DNA of 63,187 bases, the filler included, from Choristocarpus tenellus KU-1152 (Eukaryota > Protista > Phaeophyceae), in the NCBI GenBank assembly GCA_964200185.2. It is 11 parts of 11 records of this genome, joined end to end, with 100 filler letters (N's around TTAATTAATTAA, not from the genome) between each part and the next. Parts side by side here need not be neighbours in the genome. Positions count along the whole stretch, not along the records: positions 23,831 to 30,103 come from CAXNAD020008512.1; positions 30,204 to 36,406 come from CAXNAD020008693.1; 9 more parts are not named here. One strand, given 5' to 3'. The notes beneath the pieces are model-generated. The model had not been told where the DNA came from, searched no databases, and worked only from the letters and a program-made list of their open reading frames with translations. Position 1 is the stretch's first letter, and every line of letters begins with the position of its first letter. A program made the translations under genes and the position numbers. This document shows positions 4,073 to 47,630 of this stretch, one piece after another.

Positions 4073-4330
4073 GAGTCAAAGTACCTTAGAAGGCAGGACC
4101 GCGTCCATTTCGGGGCCAAAATCCAATGTTGCGATTTTGATTTAATTTTGACTATTGTGTGTGTTAGGAAGTGTCAATATCCATGTTCCAGACAGCTTTT
4201 CATAACGCATACATTTTACCCTCTACAAAACATATTGGAGTAGGAAAATGTCATAAAAAAACCCGATGGGAAGCCAAACCCCAAATGGACAAACAGGACA
4301 AAACTCGTACCCTCTAAGATACTTTCACTC
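4073..4330 (+). mobile_element. MITE family A copy
   Basis: TIRs GAGTCAAAGTACCTTAGA / TCTAAGATACTTTCACTC; TSD TGA/TGA. Confidence 0.9.
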
Positions 4331-4991
4331 TGAGTTTCCCCTGAGAAGCAGCTCAATGAGATTGCAGTGGCAACACCCACATGGTATCCGGTACGTCATG
4401 CAAGTGCTGCTGACACACACCATATATATGGTGCTCTTATTGGCATAGTTGTTCAAGCATGGGCAGGAGACAGACGAGTTACACTGCAAAAGGGGGCAAA
4501 AACCAGGATGTGGACAGGTCCTGACTTTGATCATTTCTCACTTACTCCCACTTCAGAAACCATACAGTAAAAGAAACAATACAGCATACAACCTGCCTAC
4601 TTCCCAAAACCTTTAATGTATCATCCACAAAAATTATCTAATTGAATCTGTATATGACACTTGAAAGGACAAGACACATGAAAAACATACGGAAAGGACT
4701 ACTGATTTTGGGGAATGGAGAGCGGGGTGGGGGTGGGGAGGAATCTCATCGATGTACTAAAAGTGGGGAAAGTAAGAAGTGAAAAATTTAGGAGAAAGGA
4801 TTCTTTGACACAAGGGAGATCAATAATACTCAAGATACTTCAAAGTAAACGCCTCTTCGGCCCACTTCCAGGTTGTAAACAGTTGTTAAGCAGGGTGAGT
4901 TAGCTACTCCCCCAATAACGCAAAGCTAGACAAAGTATACCATGTGCAACTAAGCACAGATCGAGACTCATCAATCACTTCACGAGACAGC

Positions 4992-5741
<750 letters not shown>

Positions 5742-6531
5742 ATGCCGACCTATTCTGAGGTAAGGAGGTTTCTAATTTGATTCTACCATTAGTTGCAAGC
5801 TTGTTGTTCTTTGTAATCTGATTTGTACTGGAATGCTGCTTGGAAACATTGTCCAAACTCCTATCGATGCAGATGGTTGTGGAGGCTATCCTAGCACTCA
5901 AGGAGCGAACCGGCTCCAGCGTGCAGGCGATCAAGACGCACATGACCACAACGAATAAGGACCTAACTTTTGCGCAACACCAGCTTCGCAGTGCCCTCAG
6001 GAAGGGTGTCGAGGCTGGCAAGCTGGTAAAGGTCAGTAACTTCTAAAGTGTTCCTATGCATAACAAAATCTAGGACATGCTATTCATCCCTCCCGTTTAA
6101 ATATTAAAGTGTCGCAGCTTCATTGTTTGTCGCCCTACGAACACGCACAGATCAAGGCCTCGTACAAGCTGTCCCCGGAAGCAAAGGTCGCCGCCATGAA
6201 GCCGCTAAAGGCCGTCCCTAAGAAGGTAGCCGCCAAACCTGCCGCTAAGATTCCTGCTCCCAACAAGGCTCTTCCAAAGAAGCCCACTACCAAGCCTTCT
6301 ACCAAGAAGAGTGTCGTCAAAACTGTAGCGACCAAAGCAACCCCTACGAAGAAGGCAGTTGTGAAGGAGACCGTGACAAAAAAGGTCACGGTTGCTAAGA
6401 AGACCACCCCGAAGAAGAAAGCTGCCACTACCAAAAAGGTTCTTACCAAGAAGAAATCTGCTCCCAAGAAAAAAACTGCTCCTGCTCCTAAGAAGAAAAC
6501 TGCTCCCAAGAAGGCAGCCACAAAGAAATAA
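5742..6531 (+). CDS. H1: Linker histone H1, 3 exons (5742-5759, 5873-6031, 6151-6531), ~185 aa
   Basis: Two phase-0 GT-AG introns give MPTYSE|MVVEAILALKERTGSSVQAIK...ALRKGVEAGKLVK|IKASYKL. This is an H15 winged-helix globular domain followed by a K/A/P/T-rich tail ending in TAA. Confidence 0.95.
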
Positions 6532-8107: not shown

Positions 8108-8366
8108 GGGCCAAAGTATCTTAGAGGGTAGAGCCACGTCCACTTGGGGGTCAAAATCCAATGTTGCAATTTTGATGTAATTTTGGCGATTGAGCTCGTT
8201 AGGAGATGTCAATATCCTTGTTCCGGACAAACCTTTTCATAACTTGCACATTTTACCTACTCTGAAATATTTTGGAGAAGGTAAAATGTCATTAAAAACC
8301 TATGGGAAGACAAGCCCCAAATGGACAAACTGGGAAAAACTCGTACCCTCTAAGATACTTTCACTC
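8108..8366 (+). mobile_element. MITE family A copy
   Basis: GGGCCAAAGTATCTTAGAGGG...CCCTCTAAGATACTTTCACTC; TSD TATT/TATT. Confidence 0.9.
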
Positions 8367-8983
8367 TATTTGTCTATTGCAAACGAATATATGATGTGCA
8401 ACTCCTAAACTCATCCATACTGTAAGTCCAATCAACAACATATTCCTCTTGAACTCGAGTAGTGCATTTATTATGCATAGGCTAGGACAATTTTTTTTCT
8501 GTTCAAATTCGTGTATACAGATACGAACATATAAATGTACCGGTAACCCCAACTGTTCCAGTTCCAGTCCAAATTATTGACTAATCTTAAGCATGATTAA
8601 TGATCTGCAGTCGTAGTATACATAGGGGTAATACCAAGTAGTATAACCAAATATCTTGATTCGTGGGAGTCAACTCAGATACAGTTCAACACATACATGC
8701 ACCATTTCCGCTCATTCAAACGTATAGAAAACTCTTTAGGATACCTCAGAACAGAGCGTAAGTAAGCAATCCAAGTTTAGCTGCAAATAAAAATATGTAA
8801 GGGATAGGTCACATTTGGGATCTCTGACACATTGATGTGGATATCATGTTCAGTCGTATCCATTGCATGCCCAACCTTCTGCCATCGGGGTTGCTCAAGC
8901 AATCAGTCAATAGCCTAGACATACTCACATGATCCGAATCTGGATGAACAGCAAGAACGGCAGTCAGATTGAACACCCACAGT

Positions 8984-9244
8984 GAGCCAAAGTATCTTAG
9001 AGGGTAGAGCCGCGTCCATTTGGGGGTCAAAATACAATATTGCAATTTCGATGTAATTTTGGCTATCGTGTTAGTTAGGAAATGTCAATATCCTTGTTTC
9101 GGACACACCTTTTCATAACGTATGCATTTTACCTACTCCGAAATTATTTTGGTTTGGGAAAATGTCATTAAAAAAACCCGAGGGAAGCCAAGCCCCAAAT
9201 GGACAAACAGGGCAAAACTCGTACCCTCTAAGATACTTTCACTC
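8984..9244 (+). mobile_element. MITE family A copy inserted in the left TIR of an older related element (~8974-9771)
   Basis: TSD AGT/AGT. Removing the copy restores cacccacAGTatcctagtggg, which is inverted to ccctctaggatacttttggcc at ~9749-9769. Confidence 0.85.
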
Positions 9245-9360
9245 AGTATCCTAGTGGGAGGGTCAGGTGTCCATTTGGGGTCTTTGTGAATTTGTAGTGA
9301 TTTCCATGCCATTCGAGTGGACGAGTCAGATGTAGGGGCGATTTCCTTTATCTGGATATT

Positions 9361-11550: not shown

Positions 11551-14500
11551 GTTGCGGCCCTGCACAACCTGGCCAAAGAGATGGCACGTGCAAATGTGGT
11601 GACCTACTCTGCAGCCCTCTCATCCTGTGCCAGACATGCCAAGTGGGAAGAGGCCCTGGGTCTGCTGAAGGAAATGAAGGAGGAGGTGAGCCAGGAGGGG
11701 GGGGGAGGGTTGTTTAATTTTTATTTTTCCGCCTGTTGTGTTCCAACCATGGATCAATGGAATATATTTTTTTAAATGACACCCTCAAACAAAAAAAGGC
11801 GGTAGGATGATAATAAGCGTGTGGGCCCTGAGTCTGCCTCTGTGAGTCCAAGTGGGAGTTGCCAAAACACAGCGTTAAATGTTTTGGACGAATGCCTTCG
11901 GCGTATTTATTTTTTTGTGTGTTTATTTATTATACTTATTATACTGTTCAGTACGGAACGGAAATATTTATTTTTATTTGGGGGGGGTTTGCGGTACGTG
12001 TTTGAATATATGTCAGGAAATTTCCTCCCCTCCCAAAAAAAAACAAAAAAACATACATATATATTTGTGGAAGGGTATGAAAATTGTAGGTGAGGTTGGG
12101 CAGAGGTGTACAAAATGGTGAAAATAATAAAAAGGATGTTGATATTAACTGTTGATATTAACTACTACTCCTACTGTGGTCAGGTTTTTGTACATAGTTC
12201 TATACTCGGTTGACCTCTAAAAAAAAACATATCTAGATATAGTAGCACAATGTGAGATGCTCTGGAGTACTTGATAACGTGCCATTTAAATAGTAGCACA
12301 ATCATGAGATAACACAGTTGTAGGACCTGAGAAACTCGGTAGAAGGACAGACAGACAACAACTTAATTCAGTATGAGATTACAAGATTACACAGTTGGAT
12401 GATGACCTGGTATGGCATAGCAGAATAGCAAATAATAACACAGCTCGATGTGAAGTAACACAACATCTTGTATGTAAGGGTGAAAGAATCTTAGAGGGTA
12501 TGTATATTAATCTTTTTCCCTGTTTGCCTATTCGGGGCTTGGCTTCCCACGGGTTTTTATAATATTTTCCTACTCCAAAATGTTTATAAATTAAAAAAAA
12601 AGGTGTATCTGGAACAAAGATATTGACATCTCCTAACAAACACGATAGTAGCCAAAATTACATCAAAATCGCAACATTGGTGGATTTTGGCCCCCCAAAT
12701 GGACACAGCTCTACCCTCTGGGATGCTTTGACTGTAGTTAACACACTGCTAAGTTTATGTAATGCAAGACCCGAACCATTGTTCCGTTATTTTGTTATAT
12801 TATTTTCCCACTCTGTCGCCGCATCCCCTCAGGGGATAGATCCGAATGACTACAGCTACAGTGCCGCTATGTGGGCATGTGTCAACGCAAAGCAGCCAAA
12901 GAGGTGCGGAGCTTAAGAGGGGAGGGGGGGAGGGGGGGGGGGGACTATTTTTAAAATCGTCCTGTTTTGAAATTGGTATCTCTGTTGTGGACGTTCGTCC
13001 AATTTATTTTTTATATTTTTTTGTTTTTTTATTTCATTATATAATAATTAATGTTTACACCTCTGTCCCTTAGAGTCTGTATTGTTACGGGGGGGATCTT
13101 TTTCGAATGTGAGATTCAGAAATATAAAGCATGTTGAAGATATTTGTGTGCAAGCCGAAGCTGTTGGCTTTCGAACAATATTTATTTTTCGTTTCTGATT
13201 CTCAGAACAATATTATTTCTCACATTCGAAATTGTTTGAAATGGTTATTCACCAAATACCTTTGTCAATACAGACTTCTGGGATATAGGAGTATATATAT
13301 TGTATGTTGTATTTTGTGTGTATCTATGGAGAGAGATGGGTTTCGGGGTTTGTACACCTCCCTAGTTCTTGTGTGGCCGTTCTGAACCCATCATATCTGT
13401 TTACATCAATAATATCAATACTGACAGTGATATTTGATAGCAGTAACGGAATGTACTAGAGAAAGTGAGTGAAAATATCTTAGAGGGTACAAGTTTCACC
13501 CTGTTAGTCCGTTTGGGGCTTCGCTTCTCACGGGTTTTTTGTGACATTTTTCTACTCCAAATGTTTCAGAATAGGAGAATGTATACGTTATGAAAAGGTG
13601 TGTCCGGAACAAGGATATACACACTTCCTAACGAACACGATACCTAAATTACATCAAAATCGCAACATTGGATTTTTGCCCCCAAATGGACGCGGCTCTA
13701 CCCTCTAAGATACTTTGGCTCAGTATTAAATGATCTTAAATGATACACGTGTGATCTCCTTACCCTCAGTGTGTGTGTTTGTGTGTGTGTGTTTTTTTTT
13801 AGTTCTGCCTTTTAAAAGAAAAAAAAACTTTTCTGAAGTATGTATACATAAATACATACATACACATATATACACATGCAGACGCGCTCATACTCCCATA
13901 AACCCCAATGTGAAACAAGGGCATTGGCCCTGTTCTTGTCTGTGAAGGACCTGCCCAGGGCTGGGGGTGGGGGTGAGGGAACCACACTGAGTCCAGAGTG
14001 TTACTATGTTGGGATCACAGCTTGCGATAGACTAGGTGACTTCAACCTCGCCCAAGCCCTCCTGAGGCACATGAGGAGCAAGGTAAGAGGTACATTTATT
14101 TATTTTTTTATAACTGTTCACCTCTAAACTAAGGAAAAAAAAAAGTAAAACGTTTTGTTTTTTTTCAGTCAAAAGAAACGTGATAGGGGGGAGACGTTGC
14201 CTCTTTGGTTTTGTCAGCCTACTCTACTCTGACTCTGACTCTTACTCTGAGTCTGAATTTTCTGGTGAAAGGCGTTATTGTAGTATTGCTGTAGTCTGCA
14301 GGCGTGTAAGTGTGTTTTGGTCTCTATTGTAGGGGCTACATTTTTTTTTTTGCATACATCTCTTTCTTAACGAAGAAGAATCGATGACGACTGAGAGACA
14401 CACAAGACACAGCATGTTTCTCTTGTCTTTCTGATTTGTGTGTGTGTGTATGTGTGTGTGTATGTGTGTGTGTGTGTGTGTGTAGATAAGGATACAGTTT

Positions 14501-15830
14501 TTATTTTTTGTTTGTCATTGACTCTACCCCTAACCCTAACCCTATCCTGTTCGAACCCTTACCGAGACGTACTTAAACGGATTCGTATCCAAGTAAATTT
14601 TTCTGGCAGAAAATTATTTTGTATGCAACAAATTCTACCCTCTGCATAAAAATATGAACTATATCCTGAGCACATTGTTGAATATCATTTAACTAATTTT
14701 CTAGAGATGATTTTTTTTTTTTTGGGGGAGGGTGGGAGCTGTTTTTCTAAAAGAGTTGAATTGATGTTAACTCATCTCTTTTGTACATTATCCGGAGTAG
14801 CTCTTGATATGAAATTAATTGTCGCAAGGGCGGATGACACTCACCTCGGATGGCACATGTCTCACCTCTCCTATTTAATTCCTGAGATACTTCCTGATTC
14901 AAACCTCCAGTAGCAATCGCCTGTGCTTCAACTTCCACCTTCTTGTTTCCTCTCCCAGCCTCCTTTGTTGATTATTGCTTTTTTTTAATCTTGATGTATC
15001 TGACTTTGTTGTGACCCCTAACCCTTTTATGGACATCGTGTAACCACCTCCACAAATTTCTTTTTTCTTTTCAAAACCGGAAACAAAATGAGATTAAACA
15101 AAAAATTCCCCATGTTGGTTCTCCTTCTCCATGCATGCTGACAGAACTCCCAACAGTTCATCCCCTAACACTAGAGGCTTTACGGTCCCCTACCTCCTTC
15201 CCCACCTTCCTCCCACCACTTTTTTTTTTTATGGTTTGTTTCTTTTTGGGGTTGTGGGGGGGGGAATAAAAATTCACACAAACAAAAAAGGGTGTGAGAG
15301 GAAGCCTGGCGGTGTACAATCTTGCTCTGAGCATGTGTGAAAGGTGAGTACAATACATTTATTTTTCATTTTATTTGTGTCAATGGACATCGGAATGTGA
15401 TGTAGAGTTAGGGTTAGGGTTAGGTTTAGGCCCGTTCCTAACAGCAACAAAAAACCGACAACAGCAATGAACATGAAAATTTTTCATATTGTCTTTTGAA
15501 AGAAGAAAAATTTCTCTTTTTTTTTTTAACTTGGATATTTTATTGCAAAATGAATGGGCTCATCTAGACGTTGGACTCATCTACACACAACTTTTGGGAC
15601 TATAGACTAGCAGGTCCTCGCCATGTTTTTGACCTGTCTGCATGAAGGTCTCACCATGTTTTTTTTGTAAGGTATCCGAAATTAGTTGGGGTAATATTTC
15701 AATGACAATACTATGGAAAAGTAAATATCTGTTTCCATTACATTTCTAATCTTTTTGTAATTTTGCAGAAACAAATTCAGAAATTTTCGGCAGGAATATA
15801 TTATCATCAGGAACAAGGCTTGGAGTCAGG
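11551..15830 (+). CDS. Pentatricopeptide repeat (PPR) protein, partial; exons 11551-11685, 12833-12903, 13920-14082, 15291-15343, possible micro-exon 15811-15830
   Basis: Phase-compatible GT-AG splicing gives ...ANVVTYSAALSSCARHAKWEEALGLLKEMKEE|GIDPNDYSYSAAMWACVNAKQPKR|ALALF...ECYYVGITACDRLGDFNLAQALLRHMRSK|GVRGSLAVYNLALSMCER|NKAWSQ. These are successive ~35-aa PPR motifs. Confidence 0.88.
12478..12734 (-). mobile_element. MITE family A copy (intronic, decayed)
   Basis: Reverse-orientation family-A sequence inside the PPR intron, with degraded termini. Confidence 0.8.
13467..13721 (-). mobile_element. MITE family A copy (intronic)
   Basis: GAGTGAAAATATCTTAGAGGG...CCCTCTAAGATACTTTGGCTC; TSD AGT/AGT. 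Confidence 0.9.
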
Positions 15831-16381
15831 GTTAGGGTTAGGGTTAGGGTTACGACTGAGGTCAAGATTGCCTGGAGGGTATTGTGTACAGATTGTATCT
15901 GTCACTAAATGGTTTGGTACTTGTCCTCTATTTGATTGACTGGGGTATTAATATTATTATTATTACTTTAGAGAGCTTGTGTGTCTATATTGCTATTATA
16001 TAGTAGTAGGGAAGAAAAGAGGAGATCTTGCCACATGTGTGGGATGCGTTTCTTGTTTCATTTTTTTTTATGAAAAAAAATGATATTGTTATTAGTGCGG
16101 GGTAGATTTCTTTTTTCTATTTTAACATTTTTTATTGGAAAAGAGGAAAATGTTGATTCGTTTTTTTATTTTTTTATGGTTCTCCTCTAAGCAGGGTGCG
16201 GATTCCCGGTAGATTTTTGTTGCTCATCGGTCGGTTTTTTGAACAAAAAAGAACAATTTTACTTTTTATTCTATGGAATAATAATAAACGTAATAAGATA
16301 GTAGTCTAGTGGTATATCCCCTTGTATTCCTGGCGCTACGGGGCACCACTTTTTCTTCTCTTTCTTTTTTTAATTTTTTTA

Positions 16382-24000: not shown

Positions 24001-27000
24001 TGAATTTATTCGTCCATATGGTACGGTAAAATATTTGAGCAGTTCGGTACGGTATTTATGTGTTACAATAACTCTTGTTTTTACGTACACTAAGGCCGAG
24101 GTTCGACTTTCGTTACGTTTTTGTTTTCAGGATTTTTTTCATGGAATGGTATGGTAGAGATTTCCGTTATTTTTTTTGCCCAGCAAAAATACTGTCGTTT
24201 TGGAATTACCATAGCACGGCACAATAGGGTTTACAATTGAATGTTATTGACAGTATATGGTGCAGTAATTCTGGAACTCACAATTGTTGGATGCAGTAGT
24301 GATTACCTTCGTCAGAATCCTACAGTCCAAAACCATAATCATTACCTTGACAGTCGTCACCGTGACAAGGTTACCCTTTCAAGGTGATGTACCCAATACC
24401 ATTGATGGAACGTGTCCAACCATTTCTAATTTATTTTAATCTAAAATTAAATTCACTGTCGAGAGGAAGGGTCTATTCAGTCGTACTAGCTAGTGAATTC
24501 AACTATCAACTGGTGGTCCCAATGCACCTGGCGTGTCAAAGAAAAAAACTTCGGGCGTGGCGTTGAGATACGCAGTTACCTGAGGGACGCATATGGACAA
24601 AATAGTGAAGGAACAAGTCATTCAGGGTTTGTTCATTCACCTCATGCTCGTTTGCTGGGGTACCGTTTTCTTCTTAGTCGTGACTAACAAACAAATTCTG
24701 GATCGACCTTGTGAGAACATCCAGATGAGGTCTGGTACAGCGACACATTACCTACCATCCTTGTCAGATTAAAATAATTTAATCGTAGTCAGGTCCTTAA
24801 GTGATGGAGTGTTTAGTCAGGTCCTTAAGTGATGGAGTGTTAAGGATTTAAGGGTGGTTAGTTATTCGACCATTGATTGAACTTATCTGTCCATGACTTG
24901 GAATCTGGTCCGAGGATGGCTGTAGTACTGAGACCACTTGTGCATGGTCATGGAGTCTGTTGGAGGTGAAATTCATGAGGACTTTCTCCACTGCGTCCTT
25001 CCCGAGGGCCTTCCTTGGTTTTGGCTCTTCAGAGTCAAAGCTTTCCTCCAGGACTGCAAACTGATTGCCAGATGGGGGTGCCATACTGCCGGGGGGACCT
25101 GTTGCTGGGTTGAACCCCCACCGCCCCATCTTATTCAAGCAAGCCTCCTAGGACGCCCAACCAAACTAGATGATGGAATATCGTTGCTTCTCCCTCATGT
25201 CTAGCTCGGAATAGTCTTTGTCTCGCTTGGGTCAGTGATCTTCCCTCTACCCTTCTCGTTGTTGTCTCTCTTCTTCCTGTCTTTGGTGACTTCTTTTACT
25301 GGTACATCCATCCTTTAGACTGTTGGCATGAGTACCAGTGTTGTGAGGTAGGGTCCAATCAGTCGTGGGGGGTGTTCAGAATCACCAGTTATGCCAGGTG
25401 GGGTTGGTTCCAGCAAAACCACAAGTACTCACAACCATCAAATCTTGGGATGAAGTTTGAATTGAAGCTTGGATCCGATGAGTGACGTTACATAGGGGGT
25501 CCACTACTTTTTGACGCTAATGTGAAAATCAATAAAGATCACCAGTAACAAAGAAAAGTAGAAATGTGGGAACAAGAAACTTACGTGTGGGGGGAAAATG
25601 TATTTGAATCCCAAACGAACTCTCTCACAACCTCTAATATGTTTTTTTTCTTCTTTTTCTATCGCATATTTCTTTTAGTCTTCTTTTTCCTGGAAACTGT
25701 TGCCCTCTTATTTTGTCACATCCACTACTTATGACTTAGACCATTTCTTTTACAGGACCGACCAATGTTGGCGTAGTTTTTATTCAATCTTATTTTATGA
25801 ATTAAAATACACTATCAATGGGATAAGATCACACTATGGTGATAGCGACCAAATTACACTATCGCGCAATCTTTGTTGTGATCGATATTCTTCCAAAACA
25901 AAAAATATTTTACTTTCAAATCCATGATCCTTCTAATATAGATGAAGCCACTTGCTATATATATGATCAACACAGACATTTTTTCACAGAAAATCCAAGT
26001 ACAACTATACTTTCAACTGGATTTCTCTAAGAATACTCCCAAACAACCAGCCTATAACATGAGAAGACATACCGTCACAATCCTCCTCATTAAGGCGTCG
26101 CTTTGAGAGTTGCTATCCCATTCCCTCTTTCGTGGGTATACACTGACGACAGAGGGCGAACTGGTACTGTGTCAGGAACCACCTTGTCTAGCGACTTGAG
26201 GTCTTGTTGTGTTGTGAGGATTTAGATTCTCGTGCAAAGTCAATCGAGGGTGGCACTCTAGCTTCACGCCTTAGTAGACAGCATGCAAAGCTTTGTTGGC
26301 TTGATAAGGGGGAAAAAGGTCAGTGGCACGAAGTTGAGCGCATTGTCAAACGCCACTTCTTCCTGGATAATAATAGGACAGCTTCATATGAGCAATTACA
26401 CGGTTGTAACTTGAAGGACACTCACTTTCCTCTTTCTAACGCGCACTATCGTGACTAGTCGTGTTCGGATTGTAACATGAGTCCTGGGGTGCAGGTCCCT
26501 AAACTTCCACCCTCATGCCCATTTCCGTTCTCTCGTTGTTGTTGACTTGAGATGAACTCGCACTGTGCTTGTCCGTGACGAGGGTTGGGATATTGTGGAT
26601 GACATAAGCTGTTACTTTAGACAGTGGTGTGGACGTGACTGTGATTCTGAAATGGAGCTTGCTAGGACGATATTTGGGGTTTTGCTTATGCTCAATGGTC
26701 AAGTGACGTTAACACCTCAAGATCCCTCAGCCCTGAAATATGTCGATGTGTGTATGCCTTCCCCGCTAAAATGAATGACCCTAGAAGGCGCACCTCTTCA
26801 CCCTTGCCCCACCGTCCTCCACCCTTCTCCACCTCCCCAGATACCTCGCGCCGGTCCTACTTCAGAGGCGAAGGGTACTCGCACACCCCCCTTCCAGGGT
26901 GGTACTGCAGGTATCCCCAACACAACTGGAGGCAATGATAGAAGTAGATCGAACGAGGGCCTAGAGTCCTTACTACTGGGTGACCTACCAGAAGCAGCAA

Positions 27001-27801
27001 TCAACGGGGGAGCGTTCGGGGGTAGCAGGTCTGGGGGCGATGCGATCGGTGTCGGTAAACAATATGCAGTGAAGCCAGGCCTGACACCAATCGAGGACCT
27101 TCTGTTCCAATCTGATGAAATCCCAGCCACCCTCCACGATGAGACAAACATAAGCAGGAAGGTGGTAGTGGGTGCTATTAAAGGTAGTGCAGGCTGGGAA
27201 GACGACATGGCGAAGCCTTCGCAGGTGGTGAACTAATTCGTGTGGGCTTAGGCTGATGGTTTGGTGTCGGGTCAGAACTGGGGCTGGAGTTGATTTACCT
27301 ACTTGTACTTAGTCAAATAGATCCAGTAGGTTGTGATGATCTTGCCACCGATGATAGGCCTGAATATGAAATTTATACGGAAGGAAGGTAGGGTTGGCGT
27401 TACTTTGGTATGGGGCAGAAACCAAGGAGTGTTATATAGGATATAAGAGTAGGGCTAGGCTTATGGTGTGAGTTTGAGAGAAATTTGTATTAGCTCTCCC
27501 TTACAGTAGTACCTTCAATACCTTTTTTTACAACTATCCTACATTTCCTGAGATTTCCCATGTGAGATTAGGAATCTCTACCAAGTTGCTACAGGGATTT
27601 CACACAAGAGGCCGAAGGTGGTGCATTCAGCCTTTCATATTCCACTTCATCTGATCCTCCATCTCTTTTGCTCTAACCCTAACCACTTCAGTACCAACAT
27701 CTTCCCTACGACCTTGATAATTTGTGGTATGGATCACCTTGGAGGGCTTGTTTTTATGTGTGTACGTGTATTTATTTTACTTCCCTTTTGTTATCCCAAA
27801 G

Positions 27802-28933
27802 GTGGTCAGGGGTCGTACTGACCTCAACAACAAACTCAGGGGTGGTCTCCCTCGACAAGCGTATCAGCAAAATATGGCATCTCCAGTGGTCCCCCCCCAT
27901 AGGCCGCATTCGCAGGTACAGAAGGAGGGTTTGGGGTGTATGAATAGAGCCAGCTCAAGAAATATGTATCTGTACTCAATTAAAATCTAAAGGAAACGTC
28001 CGAGGGGTGCTGAGCATTGCCCAAAGGAAAAAAAGTTGAAATAAAGAAAAGTAAGATTTCATTTTTTTTTTTGTTAGTCTTTATAACTGCCACGATTTGC
28101 AAGATCATTTTCTGATCTTGACATTTGTCAACAAGGTGGGCAATCAATATATGTACAAGAATTCATACACGAGGAATAGAGCCAGCAAGATAAAATTATG
28201 TATTTTTATTACTGGGTCAAATGTTTTTTTTTTGTGACAAAAATTCTTGTTGCGGTTAGGACTGAGGAGTACATGCTTGGTCTCAATATTTTGGTGTGTT
28301 GACTATATATTTTTTTAATATAAATGTAAGAGTATTTTATTTTTTAATGTGCTGTATGCGACCAAGATATTTTGTTTTTATTTTTTAATAAGACAACAGC
28401 ACTAGAGATGGTATTATGTAAGTATTAGTTCTATGTATGCAGAACTGAGGGGAGAAAGTTTTCTTTTAAAAGTTTTGATAATAATGATGATTCTCGAGTG
28501 GATCTGTTGTTGAGGAAATTATTATTTTTTAGAATAGTAATAGTAATAATAATACTCAAGTAGATTTTTTGCTGGGGAAATTAATAATAATAATAATAAT
28601 AATAATAATGCTCGAGTAGATTTGTTGATGGGGAATGTTTTGAAAAATATATACTAATAATACTCAAGTAGATTGTTGACAAGGTCAGGTTCTAGTTTTG
28701 TGACATGTGATGTATGTTGGGTACAAACTATTCAGTAGGTGCAGTACAGTCCTTCACAGACACCCGAGCAAATGGTCATCCATCCATCCACCCATCCATT
28801 CATGTGTGTGTATCATCCCTAACCCTTAACTCGGTCGCGGTCCCTTTTCCCCTCTCAATGCTGTTATCTGAAAAATAAAATAATGAAAGATTCAGTGAGT
28901 ATAAATAGAGGTATCAATGTAGAGGAAGCAAAA

Positions 28934-28968
<35 letters not shown>

Positions 28969-29683
28969 GTAGTATTATTACAAGCAAACCAAAAGTTTAT
29001 ATGCATAATGAAACAGTTGATTTGTTTTGAAAGGTATCCATTACAATTTTGATTATTTTTTGTTGAATTGTTTGCTATAGCGGTTAATCACTGACTTTAT
29101 ATTTTTTAATTCTTTTAATTCACTTTATTTGAATCGTCGCGATTCAGAACACTACTCCACTTCCCTCTTTTGGTTATATTTTTATTAGAAATACACGCCT
29201 GCTTTTGTATGATTAGGGTTAGGGTTACCTTGAGTTATCCGTCTGTGCGCCTACGTGTCTGCTGTGTGTGCACGGAATGGTTCCCTCAGTATCGACACCA
29301 ATTCCTCCTCTGTTGTTCAAAAAAGGTACACCTTGCAGCACTATGTACAAGTCGCTCGACTGTAGTTATCTATCAATACATTCACTTATCCATATTTCCA
29401 TCCATCCATCCATCCATCCATCCATCCATCCATTCGTTCACGCATACATCCACCGCGTCCTGACCCTAACCCTAACCCTAACCCTAACCCTGTATCAATC
29501 CCTCCCATTTCATTTAAAAAAAACAACAATAATACCCCTTCTGGTTCGTGTACCCGATCGATAGAACTCTGGCGACCTCAGGCGCAAGTCTCAGGAGAGG
29601 TCTTTCTTCTGGGGTCAGGATGGACAGCGGCGAATGGGGAACTACAAGATACTTCGACACCTTGGGGAGGGATACAGCTCAAA
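27802..29683 (+). CDS. Protein kinase, N-terminal exons only (27802-27915 with candidate ATG at 27874; 29565-29683)
   Basis: Spliced MASPVVPPHRPHSQ|NSGDLRRKSQERSFFWGQDGQRRMGNYKILRHLGEGYSSK|gt. YxILRxLGEGxxxK is the kinase subdomain-I Gly-rich loop. The remainder lies beyond the contig end. Confidence 0.72.
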
Positions 29684-29801
29684 GTGAGACGGAATGAAGA
29701 AAAAAAAAAATGAGTATAAAAAATAATAAAATAAAAAAAGAAGAGAGGAGAAAAACTCTTACGGGAGAGGGACGTTTTTTTAATATTATTTTTTTTACAA
29801 C

Positions 29802-30103
29802 GGTGGTGGTGGTGTAGTGCTGGTGTAGTAGTGCTGGTGGTGGTGATGGTGGTGGTGATGGTGGTGATGGTGGTAGTGATGGTGGTGATGATGGTGGTGA
29901 TGGTGGTGGTGATGGTGGTGATGGTGGTGGTGATGATGGTGGTGATGGTGGTGATGATGGTGGTGATGGTGGTGATGATGGTGGTGATGGTGGTGATGAT
30001 GGTGGTGATGGTGGTGGTGATGGTGGTGATGGTGGTGGTGTAGTGCTGGTGGTTGGGCTGGTGGTGGTGATGATGGTGGTGATGGTGGTGGTGATGGTGG
30101 TGA
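29802..30103. repeat. Degenerate (GGT/GAT)n trinucleotide microsatellite
   Basis: About 300 bp of ggtgat/ggtggt units running into the linker. Confidence 0.95.
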
Positions 30104-32200
30104 NNNNNNNNNNNNNNNNNNNNNNNNNNNNNNNNNNNNNNNNNNNNTTAATTAATTAANNNNNNNNNNNNNNNNNNNNNNNNNNNNNNNNNNNNNNNNN
30201 NNNTTTTTGGGTGATTGGGTTGCATATGTCGGATGGATAATGTAAGTGCACTTTTCCTGGTTTTGACCCAAATGGACACCCTGGTGTACACCCCCCCCCC
30301 GCCTCCAGATATTTTGGCTCACTAAAATGTACATAATACATGTATGTGTCGTTATGGGGGTCTGTGTTTCACTGTGCAAGCTTGACCTTGGAGGTGGGAA
30401 CCAGGAGATTCAAAATTCAAAATAAGAAAGGAGGAATCACAGGCCAGGGCTCTGTCAGAAAATCATACTTTGGGTCAAGCATTCCCTCCATAATGTTATT
30501 TTTTTTGTTGGACTACACAACAGGGTGAAGTTAGGGTTAGAAGAGAAGGAACATTTTTTTCGGTCATCCATAACTTCGTAATGCGTATTGTCCAGCAAAA
30601 GAATGTTTGACTAGAGTTAGCTTACAAGAAAATGCAGTAATGGCTCTAGAGACATATAATTACAACATCCGATGGTGTTCATGTAGGGGTAGCTACTATG
30701 AAGAATAATACGGCCATACTATGTTTGTCGTTATTCACTCTTGTTGTGTTTCGACTTTTTCCTTACGTGAATGAATGGAGGGGCGGCATTGACTCTTTTC
30801 CCTGGTATTGATTGGTGTCAGTTCATTCTCTACTATTTACTACATGATAGTTGTAACATTATTAACAATAATAAAACAGTACCACTACTATTGATGAATA
30901 GAAGTACACAAAAATAAAATAGCATAGTAGTATTTTACTATTTTGCCCTGTGACATTATCCAGATGTGGCAATAGTAGTATCGTTTTAGTACACGACTGT
31001 CTAGTGAATGAAGAAAGCAATAATTTCGTTGTTGTCGAGTTTTATTTCCCTTTCCCTTTCATGTTATTCCTTATTTCTTTTTGTCCATACACTGTAATCT
31101 TTGTGATTATTCGTCTCAATGGTTAGAACATTTTTTATTTTCTACCCAATCAATGAACTCATGTCTTTGCCTTTTTTTTAGTCTTCCATCACAAACTTCA
31201 GGTCTGACATCTATTCAGGTCTGATATCTATTCAGGTCTGACATGACGACTTGCTGCTATTATATAGGTTTCTGCTCTGAGGATCTTGTATTTTGTTCAT
31301 TTTCTCCATCATCATGGTAAACACTTTCCCCCCATAATGTTTTCGGGCATCGTTGTTGCATCCTTAATCCATAATGTCAAATAGTTTTTTGACCCGAAAT
31401 AATTTACGAATGACTGCGAATAAATAAATCGGGACACAAACACAGGTAAGTCATAGAGTGGTGCATGGTGCAGGGAGCCCAAAACTCCAAACTCTCCTCA
31501 ACATGTCGTAACAAACATCAGAACCCATGAACAACAACCAAAATGTCTGTGGGTATTAACAGGTTGTGATGAATATACTACTACTATTACTACTGCTATA
31601 AATATATTTTTCGTGATTCTGAAAGTTCATCGTCAAAGTTGTAGTTATAGATGTATTTTGATAATAACCCCTCCCCAACTGAATAACCGAACTCTTTCAG
31701 TTCAGTTTTCTAGTTATTCCGATTAATCGAACTTAAGCCGATTGAATTGTTGCGATTCACAATACAATTGATATGTATTTTACTATTAGATATATATATA
31801 TATAATTATTTTTTTACTCTTTTTTCCAAATGTGCTGTGTGTGTTCGTCATGTTGCGATAATATCGCTAGAATCGAGTAGAGAGAATATATCAAGAATAA
31901 CTCTATCAATAACAATATATATATGTCAATGAATACCATTGAAATATCGCGATCATTGCGAATTTATCAATATGGACCGTTCGCCGCCTGTGAAGGTTGT
32001 GAAGGTGGCTAAATTGAAGAACAACCACTTGGCAACCTGTGAACCCATCTTCATCCTCTGACACAGTTGAGGTTTAGGTAGTTGAGGTTGAGGTGTGAAA
32101 GTTCCCACCAGCTCTCTCGCTTGTCAGTATCAAAACCACACCACCCAAATCTTGGTAATCACACTTAAGGCTGCGAGGATACTCAACTAACTCCAAGAGG

Positions 32201-35200
32201 ATGAAAATCTTGAGGGTTGCAGTATTGGTTGGGACCCTGATTGGCTCGGTCGCGATTGCAGTGCCTGCAGCGGAAGTTGACATCGTCTCAGAAGTCGACC
32301 TGCCTAAGTATATCGGGAGGTGGTACCAGGTGAAGTATTCAATCATTGTGATCTGTGAGATATTGCAACAGTTACCCCAACCAGCCCATTGGACAGGTTG
32401 GCAATAGTAGGCGAGGTCTGAGTCATATCTTAATTTTGTGACCCCTTTTCCCACAGGCTTACGGAAATGCTTTCACCTTGGATACTGTTACGCCCGGTGC
32501 CACCTGTATCACTGCGGACTACACGCTGGTGGGTGAATACGCGTTGAAAGAGAGAAGAGTGTGCTAGTCTATGGAAACTGGTCACCAATTCCATCAATAT
32601 CCTCCCTCTTTGAGTATTTTTATATTCAAGACACAATGCTAGTTAAATGCACCCCTCTTGAATATCTTGTCTCTTGTCTTGTTCTTTGTGGGTGTGCACT
32701 CTCCGTTTTGTCTTACCCAGGATGAAGCGGCGAGCAGAATCTTGGTGACCAACGCCGATCGATTTCTTAGTCCAACTGGTGACCTCAATACTATCACAGG
32801 GTATGTCCTTCACACTGATTACCTAGCGTGCATACCACTCCCCACTCAAAAGTGTAGCCTGCTGCTAGTACCTGTGTGATTCTCCATAATCTGATTCCAC
32901 ATCCAAACCAAGTCCCTCACTGGCTTCACGGGCAACCCAATTCACCAAATGCTAACCCGATGGAACAAAAACATCTAACACGCTCGAAAAATGGTTTGGA
33001 TCACCGCACACTTTATCACTGTGTGATTTTCTATTTCCCGATGTATCTCATTGATACTTTTCTAGATAGAATTGCACGGGTTAGAGTTTTCGGGTACCAT
33101 ACGTTTGTTTCCACACCTGTAGGATTGTTCCGCCTTTAACCGCTTTTCCTATCTTGAATCCACCCCCCTAGCTCGCTGCACCTTCTTATGTGGTCTAATT
33201 CCTTGCCTCCAATGGAAAACAGTTATGCTTATGTGGTTGACGAATCCGAACCTGGAAAGCTGAAAGTGCACTTAGGTAATGTGCCGGTTGATGGAGACTA
33301 CTGGATTGCTGCCCTCGGCCCCAAGACCTTTGGTGATGACGGTGCTTACGAGTGGTCTATTGTCACTGGAAGGTGAGATTGCGTGCCGTGATTTCTTACC
33401 TTTGTGTAGGGTTATGGTAGATGCAATATTTGAATGTGTCTTTTTTGGAATGTTGAAGTTCTAGTGAAGAACATTAATATTTTGTACCACCGAAGAACTA
33501 GGATGCCAAAAAATTTGACTTGACAAAGAGGAAACACCCACTAGTTCATTGAATGATCACCTCATCCATCGAATATTCACCTCGTCATTTTTGCCTAATG
33601 ATCACCTTTTGCCATTTGTCACAATTGCTTCCCGTTGATCCCAACTGCCAACCCTAACCCTAACCCGACCCCCAACTCAATTTTCTGTCACAAGACGTTG
33701 ACATACTTTTCTCAGTGAACATTAACATACTTTTCCCAATGCATGGAAAAAAAAAAACTTGTACTGCGTACAGCCGGGGATTGCTACTCTTTGTTCTATG
33801 CAGGGATATGAAGACATTTGAAGAACTCTATGAGAAGGATGTACTGGCCATTGTGAAGGACCTAGGTTTCACTGGGCCTGTTACGAAGCCGGTCAAGGTT
33901 GTCCAAGAAGGGTGCTTGCCCTTCACGCCGGTAAATGCAATATTATTTTTTATAGTTGTTGTCCAACTTAAAAAACAAACTGGTCAGGGCTAGGGTTAGG
34001 GCATCATGGTCATGAGTTTTCGACATCTTCAGTGCATTCATTGTGCCTAGGGTTAGGCACAGTCTTAATTTATTTTTTGTTGCAGGTTTTTCCCGATGTC
34101 ATCATGCTCTTTAGGGTTAGGGTTAGGGTTATCATTATCTTTCACTTTCGACTGTACATGCCAGGAGTACCTCGGAGGTTGATACTCTCTATTAATTGGA
34201 GTACAGTAGTAAAAAATATTAAAAAAAAATATTTTTGGTTACGATGATACCTCATGTTTAGGGCAGTGAAATTCCCATGCCCATTGTCAAGTATGACCCA
34301 ATGGCACCCTCAAATCCCTTGCATTTGTTATATTGCATGTATTGCAGACAACTGTGGACACATTTGAAGGAGATGTGCAGGATGTGATTGCTGACTTTGG
34401 TGAGTCAGTTGTGACCCCACCTTCCACTGTGAACAGCCTCGACCTGTCTCGCTACGAGGGACGCTGGTACCAGGTGATTTGATTGGCTTACACATTGTGA
34501 TTTGATTGGCTTACACGTTTTTCTTGTGTTGAACTTTTTTTTTTTAGGCATTTTGTTTTGTGTTAGGGTTAGGGCTGGGGGGATTAGGTGTTTCTCAGGG
34601 AATTGGATATTGTGGGGAATTGAATGGCACTTGACAGTTTTTGATGATTGTAGTCTGTGATGTGAGGGGGAGCACACTCCTCTACTTGTGATCTGAATGA
34701 GTATTTGGTGATGTTTTTTTTTTGTTGCTTTTGATTTGGTTTTGACTTGTTTTTATGTTGGTATTGATAATGCTATTGGTAATGGTATTAATGTTGCTTT
34801 AATATGTTGGTACAGCCGGCCTTACTCAATGCTTGAAGGGGAGGGTGAAGGGCACCTCAAAAATGAAGTATGAAATTACATTCTATTGCTGAGTCAGGTC
34901 AACCCCAACCCCAACCCTAACCCTAACCCTATAGAGTTTGTCTTTCCGTAACCATAAATAACCCTAACCCTAACACTGTAATTTAACTGACCTGTACCAT
35001 CAACATTGCCATCATTTTACAATACATCAAGGCATATGGGTCACTGTCAACTAATGTTCTGGAGAGTGGTGGTGCTTGCGTGACTGCAGACTACAAGATC
35101 AACAAAGATGGTACCGTTGGCGTGACTAACTCTGCCAGGTAGTAACTACTTTTGATGAATTAGAGTTGGGTTCGGTTCGGGAATAAGGGAATGAAGTGCA

Positions 35201-35841
35201 TACACTAGATATGCTATTAACAACACATCTAAACCTCATTTTTTAAAATTTATTGCTTTTTGCACAGAGAGTCTTGTTGGGACCCATATCCGTGTATCTG
35301 ATGCGATATTGTCAGTGTACACCATATATTTATATTTATATTTATATTTATATTTATATATTTTTAGTCTTAGCTTTCAGCTGCCTTTAAGAGTATACAT
35401 ACCACCCTACCACTTAGACGTTTCACGTCTTTAAGAATATTCCTACCCTTTTTTTTTTTAACATTGTCCTCATTGTCCTCACCCTGTTACATTTCAGGCA
35501 AGTGTTCTACTGTCTATTGTATCATCTGTCCTATTACAATGCAATGATTATATTTGCAAACCCTGCAATGTCATATCATGTCATGCCATGTCATGCCATG
35601 TCATACCATTTCATTTACCCCTCCCCCTTAACTCTTAGCCCTAACCAATCATCTGAATTCATCCCCTTGTTGTCTCCTTGTTATTTGAGTCAGGTCAAAT
35701 GGTCCTGATGGGGAGGCTACAGTGATTACTGGCTCTGCAAAGGTGGTGGATGTATCCGAGCCTGGCAAGCTGAGTGTTCACCTTGGGGACATGCCCTTTG
35801 ATGCACCTTACTGGGTACTGGCTATTGGGGATAGTAGCAAG
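32201..35841 (+). CDS. Secreted tandem (at least two-domain) lipocalin, ApoD/Blc-like, 3'-partial; exons 32201-32329, 32457-32528, 32721-32800, 33223-33372, 33774-33930, 34348-34473, 35032-35138, 35694-35841
   Basis: Hydrophobic signal peptide. Domain 1: VDLPKYIGRWYQ...CITADY...EPGKLKV...YWIAALG...LFVLCR. Domain 2: LDLSRYEGRWYQ...CVTADY...EPGKLSV...YWVLAIG. All seven introns are GT-AG and phase-compatible. Confidence 0.93.
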
Positions 35842-36506
35842 GTGAGGTCATATATGATCATGTTCATAATGATGTCTCAGGCCATCAGGTGTGAATGAGG
35901 TGATGGTATGTCAAGAAGCACATATTTGTTTTACGACAGAGGTGATATGGTAGATTTTGATACTGCGAGGTATATAACAATGACAATGGGAGGAGACTTT
36001 AACAGAGAGAGCACGTATGTGATCACTTTGAAATTGCTTGGTTAATCATACTGTTGACTGCTTTGCTTTGCTTTGAATGTTAATGTTAATGTAGGAGAGG
36101 CGATAGAAATATCTCGCCTTAATGTGAATGTTAATCATACTGTTGTCATGGTGTAGTGACTGTTGTAGTTGCTAAGAAATACCTAGGAATACCTAATAAT
36201 ACCTAATAATACACTGGTGGTACTGTAAGTTATGTGATGTGAGATCATGCACTACCATTTTAATATTATTATTTATACTAAAATAAATGTTAATAGCAAT
36301 ATAATGCTACAAATTCTACTATTAATGCTAATTCTAATTTTGTAATATTAATATTGACATTAATGTAATGATCAGTTCTAATTTTTCTACTCTATTCCCC
36401 CCCCCCNNNNNNNNNNNNNNNNNNNNNNNNNNNNNNNNNNNNNNNNNNNNTTAATTAATTAANNNNNNNNNNNNNNNNNNNNNNNNNNNNNNNNNNNNNN
36501 NNNNNN

Positions 36507-44682: not shown

Positions 44683-45611
44683 GGTTTTCTTCCAGTATTA
44701 TTGACAGAGGATTGGGAGGGTAGTTGTGGTGCAGCAGTTGTGATGTGTGAAACTTGTGGAAGACGGTTACATGAGATAACCCCTTCAGAACGGTTTTGTG
44801 ATGTATTCTTGATGTATTTACTGTTCTATACAAATTCCGACTCTATATATATACAGCGAATACCACTTCAGAATGATTTCCAATCAATTATTCAAACATC
44901 TACAATAAAATGATTTCCAATCATGTATCTACTATATAATAAAACGGACGAAGATGAAAGGACATTATGGTATATATATAATATATATTTGTCATAGAAT
45001 TTCTTAAAATCAAAAGTTTGAACTGAAGGTAGTACCTAATGTAATTGTATTGCATCTTTTTGTATGGTAACATGGGGGTCTGGTCCTCTCCTCTATGAAA
45101 CATCGCCAACATGCGGCTTTCGTAGGATCACTGGTGGCTACTCTCCCCACCCTCCTAGCAAGGCAGCAAGGGCCTAATGGTGAGTCCTCCACACAAGCTA
45201 TCTGTACGAGCCCTACGACACAGGCCTTAGGATTATCCATTCACACCCTCCTTTCTACAGGTGTCCCCTCAGAAGACCTTTCGGAAATCATTGACCAACA
45301 CTGGGTAACCTGGGGGGGAACAACACCCCCTGCACCTGCCCCAGAGGTACACATCCTAGCTGCCCATGACGCCGGGATCACAAGGAGGGCTCAACATGAG
45401 ATCACACGCCTCCTCAACAGGATCCGTTTTAACTCCTTCAGGACACAACTGGCCGGCCTTCCAAATGAGGCACGCCAAGGTAGGGAAAGCTCCTCATTAG
45501 CCCTAGCGCGACACCGGAGCCAGTGTGGACAAGGGGCAATTGCGTGGGCCGCAACTCAACCACTGGAATCAGCATGCCAGATCCCCCCTCTAGAATTCAA
45601 GCTCACAGCCA

Positions 45612-45871
45612 GAGTGAAAGTATCTTAGAGGGTACGAGTTTTGCCGTTTTTGTCCATTTGGGGCTTGGCTTCCCACGGTTTTCTTGCGACATTTTCCTCC
45701 CTAGAAACCTTTCTGAGTAGGTAAACTGTATACGTTATGAAAAGGTGTGTCCGGAGCAAGGATGTTGACACTTCCTAACAACCGCGGTAGCCAAAATTAC
45801 ATCAAAATCGAAACATTGTATTTTGGCCTCCAAATGGACGCGACTCTACCCTCTAATATACTTTGCATCTC
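45612..45871 (-). mobile_element. MITE family A copy inside the CRE-like element
   Basis: GAGTGAAAGTATCTTAGAGGG left end. Splits LTA|SRSL, which is intact in the copy at ~60940-60965. Confidence 0.88.
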
Positions 45872-45897
45872 AGCAGATCCCTAGAGAAGGAGGAGGC

Positions 45898-46156
45898 AAG
45901 TGAAAGTATCTTAGAGGGTACGAGCTTTGCCCTGTTTATCCATTTGGGGCTTGACTTCCCATTGATTCGTTTATGACATTTTCCTAGTCCAAAATGTTTA
46001 GGAGTAGGTAAAGTATATAATTTTATGAATAGTTGTGTCCGAAACATAGATATTGACATTTCCTAACGAACATGATGGCCAAGATTACATCAAGATCACA
46101 ACATTGGATTTTGATCCCAAATACACACGACTCTACCCTCTAAGATACTTTAGCTC
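45898..46156 (-). mobile_element. MITE family A copy inside the CRE-like element
   Basis: 26 bp from the previous copy and in the same orientation; TSD AGGC/AGGC. Confidence 0.88.
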
Positions 46157-47370: not shown

Positions 47371-47630
47371 GAGTGAAGTATCTTAGAGGGTACGAGTTTT
47401 GCCCTATTTGTCCATTTGGGGCTTGGCTTCCCTCGGGGGTTTTTTATGACATTTTCCGACTCCAAAATACTTTCGGAGTAGGTAAAATGTATACACTATG
47501 AAAAGGTGTGTCCGGAACAAGGATATTGACACTTCCTAACAAACACGATAGCCAAAATTACATTGAAATTGCAACATTGGATTTTGACCCCCAAATGGAC
47601 GCGGCTCTACCCTCTAAGATACTTTGACTC
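47371..47630 (-). mobile_element. MITE family A copy, near consensus
   Basis: GAGTGAAGTATCTTAGAGGG...CCCTCTAAGATACTTTGACTC. Flanks do not form a TSD. Confidence 0.9.

What the first reader, a model, noticed from the sequence alone, without database searches (positions are those of the whole stretch)
27385..35693. Polarised telomere-type repeats in introns: (GGGTTA)n near donors and (TAACCC)n near acceptors, a candidate RNA-pairing system bridging splice sites
Seen, on the sense strand of plus-strand genes. Lipocalin intron 4: tagggttatgg 33407-33417 then (aaccct)n 33650-33666. Intron 6: gttagggttaggg 34562-34574 then (aaccct)n 34901-34930 and 34959-34974. Intron 7: ttagagttgggtt 35160-35172 then cccttaactcttagccctaacc 35625-35646. 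Kinase intron: (ttaggg)n 29213-29227 then (ccctaa)4 29463-29491. Upstream of exon 27802, G-type motifs at ~27388/27449 precede ctaaccctaacc at ~27672. PPR introns carry G-type tracts just after donors (15403-15430, 15831-15852) and G-runs after the donors at 11686 and 12904. Exceptions: lipocalin intron 5 and the intron at 15344 have only the G-type; the intron at 14083 has mostly the C-type; one C-type tract (~28817) precedes the G-type tract in the kinase intron. Known: complementary AC/GT repeats at opposite ends of teleost introns base-pair and assist splicing; CTAAC matches the branch-point consensus; UUAGGG binds hnRNP A1-type proteins and can form G-quadruplexes. Inference: this genome may have co-opted the telomere hexamer as a strand-polarised intron-definition code, through an end-to-end duplex and/or multiplied branch points. 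The sample is small, about ten introns.
Basis: partly seen in the sequence, partly recalled or inferred. Interest (0 to 1): 0.78.

Follow-up and report, generated by a model that had tools for sequence, protein, structure and literature searches.

The report
Oriented telomere repeats in seaweed introns
In three genes of a brown seaweed, short runs of the chromosome-end repeat sit inside introns with the G-rich form near the intron start and the C-rich form near the intron end, likely because the splicing machinery reads the C-rich form as a branch signal and the G-rich form as a false intron end; pairing of the two forms across the intron is predicted but untested.

Summary
Observation largely confirmed; RNA-bridge reading unproven. 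The window is from a brown alga (closest named hit Discosporangium). Spliced RNA contigs fix 10 introns. TTAGGG/CCCTAA is the commonest of 350 hexamer tandem classes. 11 of 12 tracts of 12 nt or more are intronic (21% of bases) against 31 of 82 other microsatellites; 13 of 15 tracts in closed introns have the claimed polarity (coin p 0.004). But introns are G-rich then C-rich even with tracts masked, which alone predicts about 10 of 15 (p 0.08). Co-occurrence across introns is not significant (p 0.12), most introns fold no better than shuffles, and one C-tract prefers a partner across an exon. G-then-C order is reverse-complement symmetric, so it cannot show an RNA mechanism. Best reading: telomere-type microsatellites oriented by an existing G-to-C intron gradient and filtered by splicing. 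No genome was held, so the sample is 16 closed introns, with tracts in three genes. Ten paper searches found no report. The scan noted telomere-repeat introns of other kinds on other DNA, not this pattern.

The parts
26319..26840 (+). Kinase gene intron (GT-AG), no telomere-type tract
   Evidence: RNA joint
27225..27801 (+). Kinase gene intron, 577 nt; weak G motifs at 27389-27395 and 27450-27459, C-tract 27673-27684 (117 nt from acceptor, outside the AG-free zone)
   Evidence: RNA joint
27916..29564 (+). Kinase gene intron, 1649 nt; C-tract 28817-28826, G-tract 29213-29227, C-tract 29463-29491 (73 nt from acceptor, inside a 199-nt AG-free zone)
   Evidence: RNA joint
28777..28900 (+). Candidate hidden acceptor in mid-intron: (CCAT)n, C-tract, pyrimidines, A-rich run, first AG at 28888-28889, then 5 nt, then a consensus donor at 28895; same layout as the true acceptor region 29397-29564. 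Inferred 5-nt microexon, not seen in RNA
   Evidence: not in the spliced contig
33373..33773 (+). Lipocalin intron 4; G-tract 33407-33414 (35 nt from donor), C-tract 33650-33666 (107 nt from acceptor, outside the AG-free zone)
   Evidence: RNA joint
33931..34347 (+). Lipocalin intron 5; three G-tracts 33991-34001, 34048-34057, 34111-34131, no C-tract
   Evidence: RNA joint
34474..35031 (+). Lipocalin intron 6; G-tract 34562-34574, C-tracts 34901-34931 and 34959-34974 (the second 57 nt from acceptor, inside the AG-free zone)
   Evidence: RNA joint
35139..35693 (+). Lipocalin intron 7; degenerate G motif 35160-35172, C-tract 35639-35646 (47 nt from acceptor, inside the AG-free zone)
   Evidence: RNA contig pieces and loose ends
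32100..35841 (+). Lipocalin-like gene, first 8 exons, open frame of 324 codons from 32198; introns 1-3 (32330-32456, 32529-32720, 32801-33222) lack tracts of 8 nt or more
   Evidence: weak Lipocalin_2 hits on two exons, below the curated cut-off
14083..15290 (+). PPR gene intron 3 (frame-based); C-tracts 14528-14544 (5' half, an exception) and 15016-15025
   Evidence: PPR Pfam hit on exon 11551-11685
15344..15852 (+). Start of PPR intron 4 (end not in the contig); G-tracts 15407-15424 and 15828-15852
11686..13919 (+). PPR introns 1 and 2 (frame-based): no telomere tract, but G-runs in the first 3% of each

Best explanation
Short telomere-type repeats lie in this brown alga's introns with the G form toward the donor and the C form toward the acceptor, likely because they arise as microsatellites along an existing G-rich-to-C-rich intron gradient and are then likely filtered by splicing. 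Shown: the tracts, their intron enrichment, their polarity, and a gradient that persists with tracts masked and also appears as plain G-runs and C-runs. Inferred: the C form spells a branch-site-like CUAAC every six bases and has no AG, so it is tolerated or used near acceptors; the G form spells UAG/G, an acceptor mimic, every six bases, so it is removed there and survives in the G-rich 5' part, where it may act like other G-rich enhancers. The two forms would act separately; pairing between them would be a side effect. Origin (telomerase seeding or slippage) is not determined.
For: Unit specificity and intron enrichment over other microsatellites, 11/12 against 31/82, Fisher p 0.0009. Masked GC skew falls from +0.19 in the first fifth to -0.26 in the last; 7 of 8 G-runs of 6 or more lie in the first 26% of their intron and 5 of 5 C-runs of 5 or more in the last 26%, two of these five inside a MITE. 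No exact G-tract of 8 nt or more within 216 nt of an acceptor. In 3 of 6 introns with an acceptor-side C-tract it lies in the AG-free zone, including the 199-nt and 95-nt zones. One-sided introns exist (lipocalin 5 G only; lipocalin 7, kinase 3, PPR 3 C only within 200 nt). UAG/G as acceptor mimic and CURAC as branch consensus are recalled, not from a call.
Against: 3 of 6 acceptor-side C-tracts are followed by other AGs, so are unlikely to be the branch used. Polarity (13 of 15) is somewhat above the skew expectation (10.2), p 0.08, and co-occurrence leans toward introns (odds ratio 9, p 0.12) rather than exons (odds ratio 1.0, p 0.71), as a bridge would predict. The filter does not explain why C-tracts avoid donors. 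9 of 16 introns have no end-proximal tract and the RNA-confirmed ones among them are spliced. Much non-intron DNA here looks transposon-derived by eye, which could inflate intron enrichment. No branch-point or mutation data.
Confidence: 0.42

Rival explanations
1. RNA bridge: the 5' G-tract and 3' C-tract of one intron base-pair and bring donor and acceptor together, as AC/GT repeats do in fish.
For: In single-intron folds the tracts pair: 7.7 of 8, 13 of 13, 6.9 of 7, 13.1 of 15 and 4 of 13 expected pairs; duplexes -10 to -29 kcal/mol. In lipocalin intron 6 complementarity runs past the perfect repeat (24 nt at 83%; 15 nt at 100%). Co-occurrence leans to introns, not exons. Several acceptors lack a pyrimidine tract, as in the fish class (PMC4691745, passages).
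Against: Complementary repeats pair in any fold, so pairing is no test. Only 3 of 16 introns have both ends. Of 7 introns folded against 12 shuffles each, only lipocalin 7, whose G motif is degenerate, is clearly more stable (z -3.2); introns 4, 6 and kinase 2 give +0.5, -0.8, +3.2. Folded with neighbours, the intron-4 C-tract pairs with an intron-5 G-tract across exon 5 (16.8 pairs) and not with its own (0.0); the two longest inverted repeats of the locus span exon 6. The kinase pair closes only the last 350 nt of a 1649-nt intron.
Confidence: 0.2
2. Neutral by-product: telomerase or slippage extends G-rich seeds on whichever strand is locally G-rich, so orientation simply follows the skew gradient and the tracts do nothing.
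For: Local masked composition favours the observed orientation for 11-13 of 17 tracts; the positional profile is not rejected (p 0.08). Tracts are short (8-29 nt exact), with decayed edges, and absent from most introns. TTAGGG is the Ectocarpus telomere repeat (PMC11541908, passage), and short internal tracts are common in many genomes (PMC3622300, passages).
Against: Intron enrichment far above other microsatellites. A flanking direct repeat longer than 4 nt was found at only 1 of 12 tracts, so no general insertion signature. The gradient itself needs a cause.
Confidence: 0.24
3. DNA-level marks: a double-strand telomere-repeat-binding Myb protein binds the tracts, which flank exons in a mirror arrangement, and affects chromatin or elongation.
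For: The arrangement is reverse-complement symmetric (logic). Brown algae have single-repeat Myb proteins resembling telomeric DNA-binding proteins (PMC8854648, passage). Most tracts hold at least two units.
Against: No co-occurrence across exons (odds ratio 1.0). A double-strand binder gives no obvious reason for orientation. No binding data.
Confidence: 0.09
4. The tracts are ends of a foldback or introner-type mobile element that spans each intron.
For: An inverted-repeat element would read G-then-C on either strand; MITEs are abundant in the window.
Against: With tracts masked, all-against-all blastn of 15 introns shows no shared sequence among tract-bearing introns; the only strong cross-intron hit is a MITE in the tract-free PPR introns 1 and 2. 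Tract positions and numbers vary.
Confidence: 0.03

Closest known systems
Teleost (AC)m-(GT)n bridged introns (Lin et al. 2016, PMC4691745; abstract and passages read)
   Same: Complementary simple repeats at opposite intron ends, mostly within 200 nt of the splice sites; some weak pyrimidine tracts
   Different: Unit is the telomere hexamer; tracts are short; co-occurrence across introns not significant here; introns mostly not more stable than shuffles; no functional test
[quoted passage not shown]
   Same: Same polarity, G-rich after the donor and C-rich before the acceptor; G-runs and C-runs follow it here too
   Different: There triplets lie within 40 nt of the ends; here hexamer tracts lie 35-181 nt and 47-117 nt away and carry CUAAC or UAG/G
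Interstitial telomeric sequences, e.g. pervasive TTAGGG tracts in the intron-rich haptophyte Calcidiscus (PMC13518057, passages) and short internal tracts in many eukaryotes (PMC3622300, passages)
   Same: Same unit, short internal tracts, many loci
   Different: The passages read give no intron position or polarity; here tracts are intron-enriched and oriented; flanking duplications mostly absent
Plant telobox / fungal Tbf1 sites (recalled; not from a call)
   Same: Short telomere units inside genes
   Different: Those are promoter or first-intron DNA sites; here tracts occur in internal introns of coding regions with end-specific orientation

Membership tests
Repeat-bridged introns (teleost AC/GT type) | Complementary repeats peak at opposite intron ends | tested here: met
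   13 of 15 tracts concordant; sign-flip p 1/64; one window only
Repeat-bridged introns (teleost AC/GT type) | Co-occurrence across introns, not across exons | tested here: inconclusive
   Intron 3/1/3/9, p 0.12; exon 2/4/3/6, p 0.71
Repeat-bridged introns (teleost AC/GT type) | Introns markedly more stable than dinucleotide shuffles | tested here: not met
   1 of 7 introns at z -3.2; the three folded introns with both tracts near their ends give +0.5, -0.8, +3.2; 12 shuffles each
Repeat-bridged introns (teleost AC/GT type) | Pairing needed for correct splicing; U2AF2 independence | not testable with these tools
   Needs minigenes or editing
Branch-point tracts | CURAC motif inside the AG-free zone before the acceptor | tested here: inconclusive
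   Met in 3 of 6 introns with an acceptor-side tract
Branch-point tracts | Lariat branching at tract adenosines | not testable with these tools
   Only assembled contigs were available
Telomerase-inserted interstitial telomeric sequence | Unit equals the lineage's telomere repeat | tested here: inconclusive
   TTAGGG is telomeric in Ectocarpus (PMC11541908); not checked in this species
Telomerase-inserted interstitial telomeric sequence | Empty site in relatives, with or without a flanking duplication | tested here: inconclusive
   No orthologous genomic locus obtained; flanking repeat over 4 nt at 1 of 12 tracts
Introner or foldback element | Shared sequence between introns beyond the repeats | tested here: not met

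The most novel reading that the evidence does not exclude
A basal brown-algal lineage has recruited the telomere hexamer as a genome-wide two-strand splicing code: the C strand multiplies branch points, the G strand marks the donor side, and the two pair to bridge introns of 400-1600 nt; tracts in mid-intron mark hidden splice sites, such as a 5-nt frameshifting microexon at 28890-28894 in the kinase gene.
Probability: 0.2. Interest if true: 0.82.

Novelty: new variant of a known kind. Interest (0 to 1): 0.5.

Why it matters
Repeat-based intron architecture is established in fish and suggested for human G/C triplets. An independent case in a brown alga, built from the telomere repeat, would link telomere-repeat turnover to splice-site definition and give a unit whose two strands each mimic a splicing signal. 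Even the filter reading is useful: it predicts that interstitial telomeric tracts, often treated as assembly nuisance in algal genomes, are sorted by the spliceosome. One metaplot on the full genome would decide most of it.

Tried and rejected
No whole genome held, so no genome-wide metaplot. Run search listed 4 runs, none on record as RNA; two of them gave spliced joints. Orthologous loci: 80 metagenome loci (667,791 nt) held 6 single tracts of 9 nt or more; the two best, read in full, are intronless; I recognised none as brown algal. The window's MITE pattern: 0 hits in genome and viral collections. KH exon in viral contigs: 0 relatives. Telomere-pattern scans gave 125 viral and 123 prokaryote-genome loci; tract lists for all and by-eye reading of 9 and 6 loci showed no alternating intron-end pattern; these collections are poor in eukaryote genes, so this says little. 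No PN, LT, RV or LG repeat of 5 residues or more in 103 homologous proteins, some of which seem to run into introns: weak hint that the pattern is not general. Protein searches with a lipocalin exon and a PPR exon found nothing; Atlas search nothing; Rfam nothing. Joints between opposite tract types on contigs from elsewhere in the genome (C-then-G in 22, G-then-C in 9 contigs of X1 among the rows shown, 52 rows hidden) cannot discriminate, since both orders are expected. ORF lists gave no clear gene for the tracts at 1951-2170 or 62086. Two papers opened for G/C-rich algal introns had nothing relevant in the passages seen. Supplements, including the splice-site logos of the brown-algal genomes preprint, were not seen.
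Full report
Setting. No genome is held for this window. It consists of contig pieces joined by N spacers; the KH and kinase genes do not continue across their spacers, so I treat the PPR, kinase and lipocalin pieces as three loci. A KH-domain exon has brown-algal best hits, the closest named one from Discosporangium mesarthrocarpum at 93% identity over 44% of the query. TTAGGG is the telomere repeat of Ectocarpus (PMC11541908, one passage).

Gene structure. Two of four runs carry spliced contigs. They give GT-AG joints or adjoining contig pieces for lipocalin introns 32330-32456, 32529-32720, 32801-33222, 33373-33773, 33931-34347, 34474-35031 and 35139-35693, and joints for kinase introns 26319-26840, 27225-27801 and 27916-29564. 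Six more closed introns (PPR 3, KH 1, H1 2) rest on reading frame; spliced frames of the lipocalin, kinase and PPR exons are open. Four intron stretches are open-ended. One further likely intron near 52500 was left out because its end is uncertain; it has no tract of 8 nt or more.

The observation. The window has 14 G-type and 16 C-type exact tracts of 8 nt or more. The unit is the top of 350 hexamer classes, and at 12 nt or more has 12 tracts against at most 1 for each of nine classes of equal composition. 11 of those 12 lie in intron DNA (13,363 of 62,307 bases), against 31 of 82 other microsatellites, the GGT array excluded. In the 16 closed introns, 5 of 6 G-tracts are in the 5' half and 8 of 9 C-tracts in the 3' half; looser definitions give 7 of 9 and 9 of 11. 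On RNA-confirmed introns alone the sign-flip test gives 1/64. The tracts are not peculiar to this window: 120 contigs of run X1 and 39 of run X3 carry the repeat with unrelated flanks.

A logical point. An intron with G-type first and C-type last reads the same after reverse complementing.

Background gradient. With tracts masked, intron GC skew runs from +0.19 to -0.26 across fifths, and the first 150 nt are more G-skewed than the last in 13 of 14 introns of 190 nt or more. Plain G-runs and C-runs show the same polarity, also in tract-free introns. A model that orients tracts by this composition expects 10.2 concordant of 15; 13 are seen (p 0.08). The telomere tracts thus look like one form of a general G-rich to C-rich architecture, with the polarity of the human GGG/CCC class mentioned by Lin et al. 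(PMC4691745, passage).

Pairing. Folded alone, introns pair their G and C tracts at 37 and 15 C, which complementary repeats will do regardless. Tests that define the fish class are weaker: co-occurrence 3/1/3/9 across introns (p 0.12) and 2/4/3/6 across exons (p 0.71); stability above global shuffles in 1 of 7 introns, 2 of 7 against block shuffles. With neighbours included, the intron-6 pair holds (14.8 pairs) but the intron-4 C-tract pairs across exon 5, and the longest inverted repeats span exon 6. A generic repeat has no partner specificity unless splicing outruns transcription (inference).

Branch sites and the filter. In lipocalin introns 6 and 7 and kinase intron 3 the C-tract lies in the AG-free zone before the acceptor; in lipocalin 4, kinase 2 and PPR 3 it does not. 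No exact G-tract of 8 nt or more lies within 216 nt of an acceptor. Since the C form contains CUAAC and no AG while the G form contains UAG/G (consensus motifs recalled), selection on 3' splice-site choice would sort the two forms. This is my best reading (0.42); it is inferred, not tested.

An exception that may not be one. The mid-intron kinase C-tract (28817) follows a (CCAT)n run, as the acceptor-side tract does, is followed by 61 nt without AG, then an AG and, 5 nt later, a consensus donor; 13 of 424 intronic AGs have such a donor within 10 nt. A 5-nt microexon is possible, but the spliced contig skips it and the argument is post hoc.

Other origins. No shared element among tract-bearing introns; a flanking direct repeat over 4 nt at 1 of 12 tracts; no Rfam match. 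No orthologous genomic locus was found.

Literature. Ten searches listed no paper on oriented telomere repeats at intron ends; the library lacks most subscription papers. Passages read: the brown-algal genomes preprint (10.1101/2024.02.19.579948; introns canonical, mostly ancient, no such motif in the 12 of 22 places shown), PMC13518057, PMC3622300, PMC4691745, PMC11541908, PMC8854648, PMC10226581 and PMC8226300 (nothing relevant). No supplements seen. Earlier scan notes concern introns made of, or born from, telomere repeats in other genomes; none matched this pattern by words, place or sequence.

Verdict. A real, specific and apparently unreported feature, resting on three genes. It works like G/C-polarised intron architecture; it fails one and leaves open another defining test of repeat-bridged introns, so it is not filed as one. 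New variant of a known kind; interest 0.5.

Noticed in passing
L083, L090, L094, L114, L118, L137, L144 (viral contigs, 2.1-2.4 kb): Small CRESS-like contigs carry (CCCTAA)n on the Rep coding strand: 7 of 7 where a Walker A regex hit, of 44 small contigs examined. In five the tract is 39-112 nt upstream of Walker A; in L083 and L144 it follows a donor-like site of an apparent Rep intron, i.e. C form near the donor, opposite to the alga. Family label recalled.
   Followed up: partly
L209, L227, L244, L252, L253, L255, L264, L265, L275, L280, L282 (genome contigs): Eleven of the 80 listed loci are from records titled Peribacteria or Peregrinibacteria and carry telomere-like tracts of 19-39 nt; in L253 they appear intergenic and include facing G and C tracts about 40 nt apart.
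   Followed up: no
window 28582-28609 and 28934-28980: A second complementary microsatellite pair, (TAA)9 and (TAT)15, inside the long kinase intron, about 325 nt apart.
   Followed up: no
window 28888-28900: Candidate 5-nt microexon behind the mid-intron C-tract; absent from the spliced contig.
   Followed up: partly
window 4072-4330, 8110-8370, 8990-9245, 12490-12730, 13466-13722, 45605-46155, 47375-47630, 58880-59135: A family of about 250-nt elements with terminal inverted repeats (MITE-like), two inside PPR introns; coordinates approximate, read by eye. A second very high-copy element at 30204-30310.
   Followed up: no
window 32100-35842: Lipocalin-like gene with two tandem domains, very deep in run X3; run X4, labelled another organism, holds a matching spliced transcript at low depth, possibly carry-over.
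   Followed up: no
window 4990-5402 (-) and 5742-6530 (+): Divergent histone H3-like (intronless) and H1-like (two short introns) genes; names from reading the sequence, not searched.
   Followed up: no
window 1951-2170: G, G, C tract order on the first contig piece with no gene identified; may be an unannotated intron.
   Followed up: partly
acceptors at 13919, 15290, 33222, 35031: Several acceptors are preceded by A/C-rich rather than pyrimidine-rich sequence, with or without tracts.
   Followed up: no
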